A stretch of DNA of 64,000 nucleotides. Source: a virus. The translations under genes and the position numbers were made by a program. Location: IMG/VR virus record IMGVR_UViG_3300027805_000012, positions 4,421-68,420 of that record, one strand, 5' to 3'. Position 1 is the stretch's first letter; each line of letters begins with the position of its first letter. The notes beneath the pieces were generated by a model. The model saw only the letters and a program-made list of their open reading frames with translations. It made no database searches and was not told the origin of the DNA. Below are positions 49,982 through 52,748 of this stretch, in pieces.

Positions 49982-50055
49982 GCGTGAGAGCCGGATTAGT
50001 GACGGTAGCGGCTAAGACCCGCCGATAGGGTGAGCGAACCCACCTCCACGCACCA
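49982..50055 (+). tRNA. Atypical tRNA-like RNA with AAG anticodon
   Basis: D arm gccg/cggt, loop ctAAGac, 8-nt non-TTC T-loop, imperfect acceptor, CCA. Confidence 0.55.
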
Positions 50056-50063
50056 AAAACAAT

Positions 50064-50138
50064 ATCGCGTTGGATTTCTGGTGAGATCCTCGGTCCTTCA
50101 AACCGAAGAGACGGGTTCGATTCCCGTACGCGATGCCA
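50064..50138 (+). tRNA. tRNA-Glu(TTC) with C33
   Basis: atcgcgt/acgcgat, loop ccTTCaa, CCA. Confidence 0.8.
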
Positions 50139-50145
50139 AATCAAT

Positions 50146-50231
50146 GCAGGCTTGGTGAAAGGTCCCGAAAGGGTTGTGGCTACCGTGCGAAGTGACCCCG
50201 CACCACCTCTCGTCTAGGACGGCCTGCGCCA
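50146..50231 (+). ncRNA. CCA-ended tRNA-like RNA lacking normal D, anticodon and T arms
   Basis: gcaggct/ggcctgc-G-CCA enclosing ccc-GAAA-ggg and gtgcg/cgcac hairpins. Confidence 0.65.
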
Positions 50232-50236
50232 AACAT

Positions 50237-50335
50237 GCAGCTGCTTCCTAGGTTCTGATGGTCGGAGCCGGTCTTTTGTGAAAGCGCAAAACACATGACC
50301 GGTAAGTAGAGGTTCGATTCCTCGCAGCTGCACCA
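50237..50335 (+). ncRNA. tRNA-like RNA with extended, anticodon-less arm
   Basis: gcagctg/cagctgc-A-CCA, GGTTCGATTCC T-arm; stem ccggtc/gaccgg capped by ttttgtg-aaag-cgcaaaa. Confidence 0.7.
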
Positions 50336-50341
50336 AAAATA

Positions 50342-50402
50342 AACCGTGTTCCTCGAAAGAGGCGACAAAATGGCCGCGAGTGGGACGCAATGCGACACGG
50401 TT
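50342..50402 (+). ncRNA. Small structured RNA
   Basis: aaccgtgt/acacggtt closing stem with a cctc-GAAA-gagg hairpin. Confidence 0.5.
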
Positions 50403-50411
50403 AGATTTCTT

Positions 50412-50487
50412 GCTCCTGGAGTGCGTGTGGATTGCATGCGACCTTGGTATGGTTGCGGACCGGGTTCGACTCCCGATGGGGGCACCA
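50412..50487 (+). tRNA. tRNA-Thr(GGT)
   Basis: Loop ttGGTat, T-arm gggttcgactccc, CCA; wobble-rich acceptor. Confidence 0.8.
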
Positions 50488-50496
50488 CAACAACAT

Positions 50497-50570
50497 GGCC
50501 TGTTGGTATATGGGTATTATGCGACGCTGTCTACGTTGCGAAACGGGTTCGAGTCCCGTACAGGCCGCCA
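50497..50570 (+). tRNA. tRNA-Asp(GTC)
   Basis: Loop ctGTCta, G73, CCA. Confidence 0.92.
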
Positions 50571-50579
50571 AAACAACAT

Positions 50580-50654
50580 GCCTGCTTAGCTCAGTGGTAG
50601 AGCATCGTCTTGATAAGGCGGTGGTCGTTGGTTCGATCCCAACAGCAGGCACCA
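50580..50654 (+). tRNA. tRNA-Ile(GAT)
   Basis: Canonical D arm, loop ttGATaa, CCA. Confidence 0.93.
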
Positions 50655-50659
50655 AGAAT

Positions 50660-50744
50660 ATGACAACCGAACTGGAATGGTTATCAACTTTGACTTTCAC
50701 TCAAACTGCCGAAAGGCATATCCGTTCCTCCAACTTGTTGTCAT
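50660..50744 (+). ncRNA. Non-tRNA scaffold displaying a tRNA-Glu-type anticodon loop
   Basis: atgacaac/gttgtcat, ggaatgg/ccgttcc, tttga-CTTTCAC-tcaaa, tgcc-GAAA-ggca. Confidence 0.6.
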
Positions 50745-50755
50745 CTAAAATCTGA

Positions 50756-50831
50756 TCCCCGTTAGCTCAACTGGCAGAGCACTGGTCTTTGACACCAGGG
50801 GTTGTTGGTTCGAATCCAACACGGGGTGCCA
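50756..50831 (+). tRNA. tRNA-Gln(TTG)
   Basis: Loop ctTTGac, unpaired 1:72, G73, CCA. Confidence 0.92.
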
Positions 50832-50839
50832 AACATACT

Positions 50840-50916
50840 CCGGACCTGGTGTAAACTGGTGAGCACGATAGTCTGAAAAGCTGTATGTCGCGGTTCGATT
50901 CCGCGGGTCCGGGCCA
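50840..50916 (+). tRNA. tRNA-Phe(GAA)
   Basis: Loop ctGAAaa, CCA. Confidence 0.88.
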
Positions 50917-50923
50917 AAATAAC

Positions 50924-51053
50924 GCCGATGTAGCTCAATGGTAGAGCGCCTAAAACATCGTTCGCACTCTTTGGTGAGTGTTCAACCGCTAGCGAATGGT
51001 TATCGCCTCTTAAGCGGGAGGGTGGCTGGTTCGAATCCGGTCCGTCGGCGCCA
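50924..51053 (+). tRNA. tRNA-Lys(CTT) with ~53-nt structured insertion between D arm and anticodon arm
   Basis: Canonical acceptor, D and T arms and loop ctCTTaa; insert ~50949-51001. Confidence 0.75.
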
Positions 51054-51060
51054 AAATATT

Positions 51061-51170
51061 GTGGGTGTAACTCAGTTGGTCAGAGTCAGTGGTGGCGTAT
51101 CCATCGATTCTGAGTGGAGATGCATCAAACCTCAGAAGGCGAGTCGTAGGTTCGAATCCTACCACCCGCA
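51061..51170 (+). ncRNA. tRNA-like RNA with anticodon domain replaced (59 nt)
   Basis: gtgggtg/cacccgc, canonical D arm, gtagg-TTCGAAT-cctac; no encoded CCA. Confidence 0.7.
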
Positions 51171-51179
51171 TTAAACACT

Positions 51180-51255
51180 CTCCCTATGGTGAAACTGTAG
51201 ATCATAGAACGCTACGAACGTTCAGTTCCAGGTTAGAGTCCTGGTAGGGGGTCCA
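51180..51255 (+). tRNA. tRNA-Arg(ACG)
   Basis: Loop ctACGaa, T-loop TTAGAGT, CCA. Confidence 0.85.
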
Positions 51256-51261
51256 GAAATC

Positions 51262-51361
51262 GTGGCTGTAGCTCAGTTGGTAGAGCAGGAACCTCCTCAT
51301 GGTGAAGGACCAAATCGCTGGAGGGTAAACTAAGCCGTTGGTTCGAGTCCAACCAGTTGCG
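51262..51361 (+). ncRNA. tRNA-like RNA with anticodon domain replaced (50 nt)
   Basis: tagctcagttggtagagc D arm, gttgg-TTCGAGT-ccaac T arm; no encoded CCA. Confidence 0.7.
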
Positions 51362-51372
51362 AGATAAACAAT

Positions 51373-51449
51373 GCCGCCTTAGCTCAACTGTATAGAGTAC
51401 TTGGCTTCGAACCAGGTGGTTGGGGGTTAGAATCCCTCAGGCGGCGCCA
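51373..51449 (+). tRNA. tRNA-Arg(TCG)
   Basis: Loop ctTCGaa, T-loop TTAGAAT, CCA. Confidence 0.88.
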
Positions 51450-51453
51450 TTAC

Positions 51454-51539
51454 CCCTCAGACTCCGAACTGGTTGCGGAACCGGACTTTTAATCCGGCGG
51501 CGTAAGCCCTTGTGGGTTCGAGCCCCACCTGAGGGACCA
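51454..51539 (+). tRNA. tRNA with Lys(TTT) anticodon and class-II-like long variable arm
   Basis: ccgga-ctTTTaa-tccgg, variable hairpin ggc-gtaa-gcc, A73, CCA. Confidence 0.85.
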
Positions 51540-51548
51540 AATATCAAT

Positions 51549-51622
51549 GCACCGTTCGTCTATCGGTAGGACGCTAGCCTTTCACGCTGGAGAGGCGGGT
51601 TCGACTCCCGCACGGTGCGCCA
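51549..51622 (+). tRNA. tRNA-Glu(TTC)
   Basis: Loop ctTTCac, canonical, CCA. Confidence 0.93.
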
Positions 51623-51625
51623 TTT

Positions 51626-51701
51626 GCCCTGTGAGTGCGTGAGGATTGCACGAGACTCTCGTAAGGTTTAGGACGGAGTTCAACTCTCCGACGGGGCACC
51701 A
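51626..51701 (+). tRNA. tRNA-Thr(CGT)
   Basis: Loop ctCGTaa, D arm similar to Thr(GGT), CCA. Confidence 0.87.
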
Positions 51702-51794
51702 GATTGCACTAAAACTCAGGTTGAGTGTATAAATAGTCTTAAGCAGAGACACGCATCTCTGCGACGCACAACAACAATAATAAAAGGAGGCGTC

Positions 51795-52007
51795 ATGTTC
51801 TATCCAAATCCTGAGTTCTATCACTATGAGTACCGTCGTCCATATCGTTACGGCTACCTGCATCCGTACTTCAACCCCTACAGCTATGCAGCTACGAGCA
51901 TCATAAACAGTCAGATAGCTGCAAACAACCAAAGCATCTATAATGCTGGAGTAATGGCTGGGGTAACACAGGTTGCTAACGCCATAAATCTAAACAGACG
52001 ATGGTGA
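51795..52007 (+). CDS. Small Tyr/Pro-rich then Ala/Asn/Gln-rich protein
   Basis: TATAAATA at 51728 and a strong AAGGAGG Shine-Dalgarno. Confidence 0.75.
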   Translation: MFYPNPEFYHYEYRRPYRYGYLHPYFNPYSYAATSIINSQIAANNQSIYNAGVMAGVTQVANAINLNRRW

Positions 52008-52017
52008 ATTTTTCCAT

Positions 52018-52311
52018 TCATCTTGGGAGGTGTTAGTCGCCAAATGGCTTGATTCTTTCAAAATAGTCTGGATTAGAAAGATTGGCGGGATCAAATATCT
52101 CTGGAACGGCAAAGAGAAAACATACTTTACAGATTTCTACTTACCAACTCTCAATCTATTCGTAGAAGTCACGGGATACCAAACTGACAGGGACAAGTGT
52201 AAATGGGCAATGGTGCCTAACCTCGTTCTTATAAAGAAACGTGAAATAGATCTCATTCAGCAAGGAATTCTTTCGCCAAGTATCTTAAGAGGAAGAGAGC
52301 ATCTCTCATAA
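52018..52311 (+). pseudogene. 5'-truncated PD-(D/E)xK homing endonuclease remnant
   Basis: In-frame 'SSWEVLVAKWLD...YFTDFYLP..NLFVEVTGY' (catalytic K replaced by T). Confidence 0.6.
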
Positions 52312-52349
52312 GGATGAATGTGCGGTTTCGAGCACCGCCTTGGCGACCA
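52274..52349 (+). tRNA. tRNA-Met or Ile2 (CAT)
   Basis: cgccaag/cttggcg, loop ctCATaa, gcggt-TTCGAGC-accgc, CCA. Confidence 0.85.
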
Positions 52350-52356
52350 ATTGATT

Positions 52357-52386
52357 CACAGGGTTCAATTCCCACTGTCACCACCA
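52357..52386 (+). pseudogene. 3' tRNA fragment (T-arm plus ACCA)
   Basis: gggttcaattccc...cacca with no matching 5' half. Confidence 0.55.
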
Positions 52387-52392
52387 GATTGC

Positions 52393-52467
52393 ACTCGCGT
52401 AGCTCAATGGCAGAGCGCTTCGTTGACATCGAAGAGGCCGTTGGTTCAATTCCAACCGTGAGTACCA
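52393..52467 (+). tRNA. tRNA-Val(GAC)
   Basis: Loop ttGACat, canonical, CCA. Confidence 0.93.
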
Positions 52468-52473
52468 AATTAT

Positions 52474-52636
52474 TACAGAAACTGCATCTCGGTATGAACG
52501 AGAACCCCTGAGCAGGTCGTGTGGGGGTTTTGAGCGCCAGTATGATCGACGACGGTGATTACTGTGCTGCGTATGACGCTAGGCTCAAAAGTAGGTGCAG
52601 TCGGGGCGCAATCCATCAATCCTACCGGTTTCTGTA
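52474..52636 (+). ncRNA. Multi-helix structured RNA (~163 nt)
   Basis: tacagaaac/gtttctgta, actgcatct/aggtgcagt, ttgagc/gctcaa, aacccc/ggggtt. Confidence 0.6.
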
Positions 52637-52648
52637 CGCTAAATCAAT

Positions 52649-52748
52649 TCGCCGTGGCTCTGGGTGCCCCAGTCTTGCGCGCAGACTGGAAGAGACGGTT
52701 CGAGTCCGTCCATGGTAAATCTGGGTTCGAGACCCAGGCGGCGAGCCT
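52649..52748 (+). ncRNA. tRNA-like RNA with two TPsiC arms
   Basis: tcgccgt/gcggcga acceptor; gacgg-TTCGAGT-ccgtc and ctggg-TTCGAGA-cccag; ends GCCT. Confidence 0.65.

What the first reader, a model, noticed from the sequence alone, without database searches (positions are those of the whole stretch)
49982..52748. A family of tRNA-framed RNAs with swapped, extended or detached anticodon domains interleaved with real tRNAs
At least seven elements (49982, 50146, 50237, 50924, 51061, 51262, 52649) keep tRNA ends or elbows but alter the decoding end, and one (50660) keeps only the anticodon loop. Their stems are well paired rather than eroded, which argues for selection over decay. T4 rnaC/rnaD are a precedent for unexplained stable RNAs in tRNA clusters, and bacterial YrlA RNAs are tRNA mimics linked to Ro60. 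Hypothesis: the tRNA frame is a processing and stability chassis carrying aptamer-like cargo, serving as decoys for defence nucleases or as partners of the phage Ro60.
Basis: partly seen in the sequence, partly recalled or inferred. Interest (0 to 1): 0.86.

Follow-up and report, generated by a model that had tools for sequence, protein, structure and literature searches.

The report
Odd tRNA-shaped RNAs in phage array
A freshwater jumbo phage packs the gaps of its 17-tRNA gene array with about ten small folded RNA modules, several of which keep the ends and elbow of a tRNA but not a normal decoding arm. This belongs to a poorly understood kind of phage RNA known since T4's "species 1" RNA, and no function could be shown here.

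Summary
All eight elements are at the stated coordinates. Five (C 50237, E 50924, F 51061, G 51262, K 52649) are clearly tRNA-derived frames with an altered middle. A (49982) is a loose cloverleaf ending in ACCA. B (50146) keeps only an acceptor helix and GCCA. D (50660) has no tRNA frame.

"Well-paired stems" holds for A, C, D and F (z -2.3 to -3.8, like real tRNAs). It does not hold for B, E, G and K.

The array is transcribed in nature. Two freshwater metatranscriptomes hold identical contigs, and one carries G at the wobble A34 of tRNA-Arg(ACG), the inosine signature.

I found no homologue of any cargo: not in the one syntenic relative (which also has Ro60), IMG/VR, JGI metagenomes or a 5.8-billion-protein index. 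Covariation could therefore not be tested for these RNAs.

Indirect support comes from other phage tRNA arrays, which hold similar oversize frames. One family of about 100 nt shows compensatory changes in 11 of 29 pairs. T4 rnaC also carries a canonical T arm.

Nothing supports the Ro60 or decoy roles. The YrlA motif is at chance level.

The elements are heterogeneous: part likely working tRNA-scaffolded RNAs, part likely debris. This scan has noted the same kind in other phages before.

The parts
49982..50059 (+). A: 78-nt cloverleaf-like RNA. Acceptor helix of 5+3 bp with one bulge, three hairpins, ACCA end. One loop reads CTAAGAC. The T-like arm is non-consensus.
   Evidence: Fold z -3.0. 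No Rfam or ARAGORN tRNA call. No single deletion restores a tRNA.
50146..50232 (+). B: 7-bp acceptor-like helix plus GCCA. The interior is not tRNA-like and includes a CCC-GAAA-GGG hairpin.
   Evidence: Sequence and fold. z +0.15, so no better than shuffles. It starts right after a normal spacer.
50237..50335 (+). C: tRNA frame (perfect acceptor helix, T arm, ACCA). The anticodon arm is a rod of 6 bp, a 5-nt bulge, 7 bp and a GAAA loop.
   Evidence: z -3.8. Model R1 built from it matches ordinary tRNAs over positions 1-99. No consistent restoring deletion.
50342..50404 (+). C2: 63-nt module closed by a 7-8-bp helix, with a CCTC-GAAA-GAGG hairpin. No tRNA features.
   Evidence: z -1.2.
50660..50745 (+). 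D: 86-nt module closed by an 8-bp helix. It holds a 5-bp hairpin with loop CTTTCAC (the same loop as tRNA-Glu at 51549) and a TGCC-GAAA-GGCA hairpin. No acceptor frame or CCA.
   Evidence: z -3.0. Covered by RNA-run contig 50573-50743.
50924..51053 (+). E: tRNA-Lys(CUU)-type frame with an extra hairpin arm of about 53 nt between the D arm and the anticodon arm. GCCA end, 6-bp T stem.
   Evidence: Rfam tRNA 27.3 bits, with 66 nt in place of 13. 119 single-deletion variants are called tRNA-Lys(ctt). It shares the 13-mer of the anticodon arm with tRNA-Lys at 49901. z -1.1.
51061..51170 (+). F: textbook acceptor, D and T arms. The middle 58 nt form a 5-bp hairpin with a 5-nt loop plus a 6-7-bp hairpin. 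No encoded CCA (ATTA follows).
   Evidence: Strict frame scan. z -2.3. Deletions give only abnormal anticodon loops.
51262..51361 (+). G: tRNA frame with canonical D and T arms. The anticodon arm is lengthened and encloses a 23-nt loop with an inner 4-bp hairpin. The acceptor helix has three G-U pairs, including G3-U70. No CCA.
   Evidence: Rfam tRNA 39.7 bits, with 42 nt in place of 15. z -0.3.
52350..52392 (+). I: lone tRNA 3' fragment (T arm, acceptor 3' strand and CCA), which is plain debris.
   Evidence: Sequence. No 5' partner.
52474..52636 (+). J: multi-branched RNA of about 165 nt, closed by an 11-bp long-range helix.
   Evidence: z -2.2 for 52470-52642. Covered by RNA-run contig 52070-52625.
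52649..52748 (+). K: 7-bp acceptor helix enclosing a 7-bp hairpin and two T-arm-like hairpins (loops TTCGAGT and TTCGAGA). It ends GCCT.
   Evidence: Strict scan. z -1.4. Relaxed ARAGORN reads the first T-like arm as a Ser(cga) anticodon arm.
49647..52467 (+). The array of 17 ordinary tRNA genes that frames the elements. All encode CCA and are separated by 4-13-nt A-rich spacers.

Best explanation
The gaps of this jumbo phage's tRNA array are filled by discrete, hairpin-closed small RNA modules. They are transcribed with the tRNAs as one precursor.

In C, E, F, G and K, and loosely in A and B, the module keeps the upper half of a tRNA: the acceptor helix, in C, E, F, G and K also the T arm, and often the elbow and CCA. 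That is the part that RNase P, the 3' trimming enzymes and the CCA-adding enzyme read. These modules would therefore be cut out and stabilised like tRNAs, although their decoding arm is replaced, lengthened or supplemented.

They most likely act as non-decoding tRNA look-alikes, a natural version of the engineered 'tRNA scaffold', that engage tRNA-binding host or phage factors. The set is mixed: A, C, D, F and probably E look maintained, while B, G, K and fragment I may be decaying or recombinant remnants.

Shown: anatomy, array context and transcription. Inferred: processing, stability and any function.
For: - The tRNA frames are beyond chance.
- Every non-tRNA stretch of the array is a closed module flanked by the same A-rich spacers as the tRNAs.
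- Fold z-scores of A, C, D, F and J equal those of real tRNAs. Four GAAA-capped hairpins occur in B, C, C2 and D.
- Two freshwater metatranscriptome runs hold identical contigs over 48501-52625, while in run X1 the flanks 47000-48334 and 52874-55000 are empty.
- Only two base differences were listed in the 8 kb laid, and one of them is A>G exactly at wobble A34 (51214) of tRNA-Arg(ACG). That is the inosine signature, so those contigs derive from RNA.
- The odd frames are not recent copies of neighbouring tRNAs.
- The same architecture recurs in other phage arrays: 31 distinct oversize frames beside 1083 tRNAs in 1.2 Mb.
- One family of about 100 nt, in 9 loci of other phages, has compensatory changes in 6 of 7 acceptor pairs, 3 of 5 T-stem pairs and 2 cargo pairs.
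- T4 rnaC has a canonical T arm and z -4.6.
Against: - No homologue of any cargo was found anywhere. There is therefore no covariation or conservation evidence for these RNAs themselves.
- The only syntenic relative, G001, lacks them.
- B, E, G and K fold no better than shuffles.
- F, G and K lack the CCA that all 17 real tRNAs in the array encode.
- Fragment I shows that debris is present.
- The RNA-run data are assembled contigs, so they show neither mature ends nor abundance.
Confidence: 0.45

Rival explanations
1. Mostly debris. The odd units are dead tRNA genes left by insertions, unequal recombination between neighbouring tRNA genes and homing-nuclease activity in a fast-changing array. 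They are transcribed only because they lie inside the operon.
For: - No homologues exist, and the relative G001 has none of them.
- B, E, G and K have z-scores above -1.5.
- F, G and K have lost CCA. G's acceptor helix has three G-U pairs.
- Fragment I is a bare tRNA 3' end.
- K's two T arms and E's Lys anticodon arm on a Val/Ile-like frame look recombinant.
- Two nuclease genes sit in or at the array (49038-49661 and 52030-52311). The second belongs to a family embedded in hundreds of phage tRNA arrays.
Against: - A, C, D and F fold as well as real tRNAs.
- The inserted material consists of tidy hairpins with GNRA caps, not scattered stem-breaking changes.
- The frames are not recent copies of neighbours.
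- Comparable elements in other phages are kept with compensatory changes.
- Phage genomes rarely keep more than 1 kb of filler.
Confidence: 0.3
2. Some units are still working tRNAs with unusual bodies. Examples are E as tRNA-Lys(CUU) with an extra arm, the class-II-like tRNA-Lys(UUU) at 51454, A with its CTAAGAC loop, and K read as Ser(CGA). Their altered shape could evade anticodon nucleases. Alternatively, the inserts are short introns removed by cleavage and ligation.
For: - For E, 119 single deletions restore an ARAGORN tRNA-Lys(ctt), and the anticodon arm is identical over 13 nt to that of the normal tRNA-Lys(CTT).
- The array has three Lys-type and three Glu-type anticodon loops.
- Lak megaphages are reported to have 'enigmatic' tRNA introns (PMC6784885).
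Against: - C, F and G have no 7-nt anticodon loop that any single deletion restores consistently.
- E's insert lies at position 26/27, not 37/38. By my inspection it shows no bulge-helix-bulge motif.
- No group I intron is detected in this array, although such introns are detected in other phages' tRNAs.
- E has a 6-bp T stem and a G73 discriminator.
Confidence: 0.12
3. They are Y-RNA-like partners of the phage Ro60 encoded at 61679-63289.
For: - Ro60 is real: Pfam TROVE 5.7e-25 and Ro60 vWA 6e-48.
- Bacterial Y RNAs mimic tRNAs (PMC4201824).
- Earlier notes of this scan report tRNA-shaped RNAs beside phage Ro60, including a Lys-type tRNA with a module between the D and anticodon arms, which is the layout of E. 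This is a lead only.
Against: - Rfam YrlA gives only 16-24 bits against a cut-off of 69. Those hits span the T arm of one unit and the D arm of the next, so they are artefacts of the tandem arrangement.
- GNCGAAN0-1G occurs once in the array, at chance level.
- No motif is shared with the RNA upstream of Ro60.
- G001 has a 65%-identical Ro60 but none of these elements.
- The conserved tRNA-framed family found elsewhere occurs in a complete phage record without TROVE; only 1 of 5 records has it.
- The elements lie about 9-12 kb from Ro60.
Confidence: 0.08

Closest known systems
Phage T4 species 1 and species 2 RNAs (rnaC 139 nt, rnaD 119 nt)
   Same: Small stable RNAs encoded inside the phage tRNA cluster, next to a GIY-YIG homing nuclease (segB). 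rnaC carries a canonical T arm preceded by long hairpins. Their function is still unknown (PMC3014915, PMC9697503).
   Different: No sequence similarity. T4 has two such RNAs at the end of the cluster, whereas here about ten are interleaved with the tRNAs. Several here keep full acceptor, D and T arms and an encoded CCA.
'Enigmatic introns' in tRNAs of Lak megaphages (Devoto et al. 2019, PMC6784885)
   Same: Oversize tRNA genes in a huge phage, with conserved inserts of unknown nature.
   Different: The Lak inserts were read as introns in otherwise decodable tRNAs. Here only E can be restored by one deletion, and C, F and G have no recoverable anticodon loop.
Bacterial and phage Y RNAs of the YrlA type with Ro60/Rsr (Rfam RF02553; Chen et al. 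2014, PMC4201824)
   Same: tRNA mimicry by a non-decoding RNA, with a Ro60 gene present in the same phage.
   Different: YrlA is circularly permuted: its ends lie at the anticodon side and its acceptor stem is closed by a loop. It also carries GNCGAAN0-1G. The elements here have the normal tRNA strand order, open acceptor ends with CCA, and no such motif.
tmRNA tRNA-like domain, and the engineered 'tRNA scaffold' for recombinant RNA (own knowledge: Ponchon and Dardel 2007)
   Same: The acceptor and T-arm half of a tRNA is kept, and the anticodon arm is replaced by other RNA. The scaffold gives RNase P processing and stability.
   Different: There is no tag reading frame or pseudoknots as in tmRNA. 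Only G has the G3-U70 pair. The scaffold is man-made, and a natural use is only inferred here.
Group I intron-containing tRNA genes in phage arrays
   Same: Oversize tRNA frames inside phage tRNA clusters. Examples were found in other phages' loci L019, L066, L072 and L074.
   Different: Those inserts are about 195-205 nt and match Rfam RF00028. The inserts here are 25-66 nt and match no intron or ribozyme family.

Membership tests
tRNA (Rfam RF00005) | Score at or above the gathering cut-off of 29 bits over the whole model | tested here: inconclusive
   G scores 39.7 bits and passes. E scores 27.3 bits, just under. A, B, C, D, F and K get no full-length hit at E<=10; F has only a T-arm fragment at 14.5 bits.
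tRNA (Rfam RF00005) | A 5-bp anticodon stem with a 7-nt loop (U33, purine 37) at the normal place | tested here: not met
   C, F and G have no such loop. E has one, displaced by a 53-nt arm. A has a 4-bp stem with loop CTAAGAC. K has only a T-loop-like TTCGAGT.
tRNA (Rfam RF00005) | 7-bp acceptor helix, T arm with a TTCRA loop, and a D loop with GG | tested here: met
   Met by E, F and G. C and K meet it with deviations. Not met by A, B or D.
YrlA / Y RNA (Rfam RF02553) | Score at or above 69 bits, with permuted tRNA-like domain order | tested here: not met
   Best scores are 23.8, 23.2 and 16 bits. Each hit bridges two neighbouring units.
YrlA / Y RNA (Rfam RF02553) | GNCGAAN0-1G motif near the 5' end (PMC4201824) | tested here: not met
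   One occurrence in the array (50708, inside D's GAAA hairpin). The window has 22 per strand in 64 kb, so this is the chance rate.
YrlA / Y RNA (Rfam RF02553) | Binding to Ro60 | not testable with these tools
   No RNA-protein test is available. Co-occurrence argues against it.
T4 rnaC/rnaD-type stable RNAs of phage tRNA clusters | Encoded within the tRNA cluster on the same strand and co-transcribed | tested here: met
   Same strand, with tRNA-like spacers. RNA-run contigs span tRNAs and odd units together.
T4 rnaC/rnaD-type stable RNAs of phage tRNA clusters | Accumulates as a discrete stable RNA after processing | not testable with these tools
   Only assembled contigs were available, which show no ends or levels.
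T4 rnaC/rnaD-type stable RNAs of phage tRNA clusters | Sequence homology to rnaC or rnaD | tested here: not met
   No BLAST match of the array or of C to T4-like phages beyond tRNAs.
Group I intron in tRNA | Match to Rfam RF00028, with an insert of about 200 nt or more in the anticodon loop | tested here: not met
   No hit at E<=10 in 48400-53200. The same search finds such introns in other phages' tRNAs.
Archaeal-type (bulge-helix-bulge) tRNA intron | Two 3-nt bulges flanking a 4-bp helix at the exon-intron borders | tested here: not met
   By my inspection of E and G in the sequence and folds, the putative borders lie inside helices.
tmRNA | G3-U70 acceptor pair, tag reading frame and pseudoknots | tested here: not met
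   ARAGORN and Rfam find no tmRNA in the window. Only G has G3-U70, and its cargo is 49 nt.

The most novel reading that the evidence does not exclude
This phage uses the upper half of a tRNA as a general expression and maturation chassis for a whole suite of unrelated small RNAs. At least some of them (C, E, F and the Glu-loop module D) would work as non-decoding mimics that soak up tRNA-targeting defence enzymes or other tRNA-binding factors. If so, phage tRNA arrays would double as arrays of anti-defence or regulatory RNAs.
Probability: 0.2. Interest if true: 0.8.

Novelty: new variant of a known kind. Interest (0 to 1): 0.55.

Why it matters
Phage tRNA genes are now known to counter tRNA-cleaving defences, but the non-decoding RNAs that sit among them have had no known role since T4 rnaC and rnaD were found in the 1970s.

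This array is an unusually dense and varied case: about ten modules beside 17 tRNAs. There is natural expression evidence, and a Ro60 gene lies in the same genome.

Together with the conserved family found in other phages, it suggests that tRNA-framed, anticodon-less RNAs are a regular and uncatalogued component of large-phage genomes. Standard tRNA finders and Rfam miss them. If they are functional, they offer natural designs for stable RNA expression and possibly a new layer of phage counter-defence.

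Tried and rejected
Searches for relatives that led nowhere:
- Near and distant BLAST of the array against 50,697 phage records gave only ordinary tRNA matches.
- IMG/VR searched with the flanking ORF 47225-47950 gave one distant relative, G001.
- G001 is syntenic at 29-78% amino-acid identity (mostly 40-70%). Its tRNA cluster lies elsewhere and holds none of the odd cargo.
- The single protein 52030-52311 found nothing in IMG/VR.
- Alignment A1 fetched 79 IMG/VR and 80 JGI loci. 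The best was 62% identical, and none has cargo homologues.
- The 5.8-billion-protein index returned only the protein itself, and its contig L171 is identical to the window.
- 16-mers from the C and D cargo hit IMG/VR only at chance numbers, with no extension.
- Covariance model R1 of C found only ordinary tRNAs.

Ideas rejected:
- Ribozymes or known RNA families in the gaps: no Rfam hit at E<=10 other than tRNA-like ones.
- Repeated or mobile cargo: no second copy in the window.
- A 'nuclease cassette with a hairpin-swapped second copy of the neighbouring tRNA' (lead from earlier notes). The odd frames are no closer to their neighbours than real tRNAs are to each other.
- A Ro60 motif or a motif shared with the Ro60-upstream RNA.

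The run contigs were identical to the window, so they gave no population variation to test selection.

Full report
**Source and setting**

The window is most of a 69.8-kb IMG/VR virus record that CheckV rates 19% complete, so it is a fragment of a jumbo phage of roughly 350 kb. It encodes a true Ro60 at 61679-63289, with Pfam TROVE and Ro60 vWA domains.

The only relative found, G001, is an 85.8-kb record from the same JGI sample. It is syntenic at 29-78% amino-acid identity (mostly 40-70%) and carries a betaproteobacterial-type permuted tmRNA, which hints at the host.

**The array**

ARAGORN finds 17 tRNAs on the + strand between 49647 and 52467, and Rfam confirms most of them. All encode CCA and are separated by 4-13-nt A-rich spacers.

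The larger gaps are not loose sequence. Each is filled by one to three discrete modules closed by a terminal helix and flanked by the same kind of spacer. These are A, B, C, C2, D, E, F, G, J and K, plus a bare tRNA 3' fragment, I. The one exception is the 572-nt stretch 51702-52273, which holds two open reading frames.

**Check of the observation**

- A strict scan asked for a 7-bp acceptor helix directly after a 5-bp T stem with a TTCRA loop. It returns the real tRNAs plus F, G and K. It returns nothing on the minus strand or elsewhere in 64 kb.
- Rfam's tRNA model matches G at 39.7 bits and E at 27.3 bits. Inserts of 42 and 66 nt stand in place of the anticodon arm.
- C has a perfect acceptor helix, a consensus T loop and ACCA. 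A covariance model built from C matches ordinary tRNAs end to end.
- A is only a tRNA-sized cloverleaf with ACCA.
- B keeps just the acceptor helix and GCCA.
- D has no tRNA frame. The identity of its loop with the tRNA-Glu loop is weakly significant at best.

Fold z-scores against dinucleotide shuffles split the set:

| Group | Elements and z-scores |
|---|---|
| Like the real tRNAs (-2.0 to -3.2) | A -3.0, C -3.8, D -3.0, F -2.3, J -2.2 |
| Not distinguishable from shuffles | B +0.15, C2 -1.2, E -1.1, G -0.3, K -1.4 |

F, G and K also lack the encoded CCA that every real tRNA here has. The cargos share no sequence with each other, so 'family' means a class and not homologues.

**Anatomy**

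- C replaces the anticodon arm by a rod of 6 bp, a 5-nt bulge, 7 bp and a GAAA cap.
- E is a Lys(CUU)-type tRNA with an extra hairpin arm between the D and anticodon arms. 119 different single deletions make ARAGORN call it tRNA-Lys(ctt). Its anticodon arm is identical over 13 nt to that of the normal tRNA-Lys at 49901, while its 5' frame is closest to the Val and Ile tRNAs.
- F has two hairpins where the anticodon and variable regions should be.
- G has a lengthened stem enclosing 23 nt.
- K has two T-arm-like hairpins.
- For C, F and G, no single deletion gives a consistent normal anticodon loop.
- No element is a recent copy of a neighbouring tRNA.

**Expression**

Two freshwater metatranscriptome runs hold more than half of the stretch's sampled words. 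Their contigs were laid on 47000-55000 and are identical to the window. They cover 48501-52625 in pieces that include A, B, C, D, parts of F and G, and J. In run X1 the flanks 47000-48334 and 52874-55000 are empty.

Only two base differences were listed in the 8 kb. One is A>G at 51214 in an RNA-run contig. That position is the wobble A34 of tRNA-Arg(ACG), the one bacterial tRNA position that TadA edits to inosine, and inosine reads as G. This is strong circumstantial evidence that the contigs come from RNA and that the array's tRNAs are matured in nature. A strain difference cannot be excluded, because no DNA run covers that base. Contigs cannot show mature ends or levels.

**Search for relatives**

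No homologue of any cargo was found. The list of searches is in Tried and rejected.

**The kind elsewhere**

The small nuclease-like ORF at 52030-52311 overlaps tRNA-Met. It belongs to a family that sits inside tRNA arrays of hundreds of phage contigs, which gave 1.2 Mb of comparison material.

- That material holds 1083 ARAGORN tRNAs. The strict scan finds 31 distinct oversize frames without a tRNA call.
- The oversize frames of about 200-270 nt that were checked with Rfam are tRNAs with group I introns.
- The frames of about 95-160 nt look like the ones here: rod-like anticodon arms (L064), double T arms (L021) and branched inserts (L047, L053).
- One such frame has relatives in 9 loci. It is a tRNA frame of about 100 nt whose anticodon arm is a conserved irregular helix. 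The alignment shows compensatory changes in 6 of 7 acceptor pairs, 3 of 5 T-stem pairs and 2 cargo pairs. Rfam sees it only as a weak tRNA.
- T4 rnaC, the classic unexplained RNA of a phage tRNA cluster, also carries a canonical T arm and folds with z -4.6. Its role is still unknown.

RNAs of this kind are thus maintained by selection in other phages. This is support by analogy, not evidence for the window's own elements.

**Proposed functions**

- Ro60: Rfam YrlA hits are artefacts of tandem tRNAs. The GNCGAAN0-1G motif of YrlA is at chance frequency. No motif is shared with the RNA upstream of Ro60. G001 keeps Ro60 but not these elements. The conserved family elsewhere occurs in a complete 114-kb phage record without a TROVE gene.
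- Decoys: nothing here tests this. The three Lys-type and three Glu-type loops are suggestive only.

**Earlier notes of this scan**

Earlier notes describe the same kind in other phages. They include a two-T-loop RNA and a Lys-type tRNA with a module between the D and anticodon arms beside a phage Ro60, which is the layout of E. I used these as leads only. The nuclease-cassette lead failed its test here. The Ro60 lead could only be tested by motif and co-occurrence, and both tests were negative.

**Verdict**

This is a real, dense and varied set of tRNA-framed and hairpin-closed RNAs inside a transcribed phage tRNA operon. The most likely reading (0.45) is tRNA-scaffolded, non-decoding small RNAs processed like tRNAs, mixed with some decaying units. 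'Mostly debris' remains a serious rival (0.3). It is a new variant of a known but unexplained kind, and function is not shown.

Noticed in passing
window 48742-49040 (+): A strongly structured 300-nt non-coding stretch (z -3.6) with an 18-bp long-range helix lies between a 42-codon ORF with a terminator-like hairpin and the GIY-YIG gene. The overlapping RNA-run contig 48501-48840 has the highest depth of the region (37 and 12). No Rfam match.
   Followed up: partly
window 51214: A in the DNA assembly reads as G in a metatranscriptome contig, exactly at wobble A34 of tRNA-Arg(ACG). This looks like TadA A-to-I editing of a phage tRNA seen in an environmental sample.
   Followed up: partly
window 52030-52311 (+) and L005 14838-15245: A small nuclease-like ORF (weak Pfam hit to PvuRts1I-like N) ends inside tRNA-Met, with its stop codon in the anticodon loop. 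The same pairing with tRNA-Met occurs in G001. Relatives sit in tRNA arrays of more than 200 IMG/VR and more than 200 JGI contigs. It may be a homing nuclease family specialised on tRNA clusters.
   Followed up: partly
window 49038-49661 (+): A 207-aa ORF whose N-terminus looks GIY-YIG-like by eye (Pfam gave no family match) runs 15 nt into tRNA-Trp. This mirrors the GIY-YIG homing nuclease segB in the T4 tRNA cluster.
   Followed up: no
window 50064-50138 (+): tRNA-Glu(UUC) has C at position 33 (loop CCTTCAA) instead of the near-universal U33. A second tRNA-Glu at 51549 has the standard CTTTCAC loop.
   Followed up: no
window 51454-51539 (+): An 86-nt tRNA with a Lys UUU anticodon has a long variable arm. 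Rfam scores it best as tRNA-Sec (33.7 bits, below the cut-off) and it does not reach the tRNA gathering score.
   Followed up: no
L172, L173, L174, L176, L177, L178 (=L049 9614-9711), L181, L185, L135 280-378: A conserved family of tRNA-framed RNAs of about 100 nt in other phages. The anticodon arm is replaced by a conserved irregular helix around CAAGGGCCCAC ... GTGGGAATCGCCAGTG. 11 of 29 pairs show compensatory changes. It is not in Rfam, and it is present in a complete phage record without Ro60.
   Followed up: partly
L072 2319-2591, L074 1276-1548, L019 5125-5385, L066 6262-6513: tRNA genes in phage tRNA arrays interrupted by group I introns (Rfam RF00028, 52-75 bits).
   Followed up: no
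L005 3300-3750 (G001), L042 1170-1460 and 1666-1822, L015 11730-12050: Related large phages carry permuted tmRNA genes. L042 also matches the Polynucleobacter-1 RNA family, a clue to freshwater betaproteobacterial hosts.
   Followed up: no
window 48175-48288 (+): Two promoter-like sites with the same TGTACA -35 element and 16-nt spacers lie about 1.4 kb upstream of the array, and may drive it.
   Followed up: no
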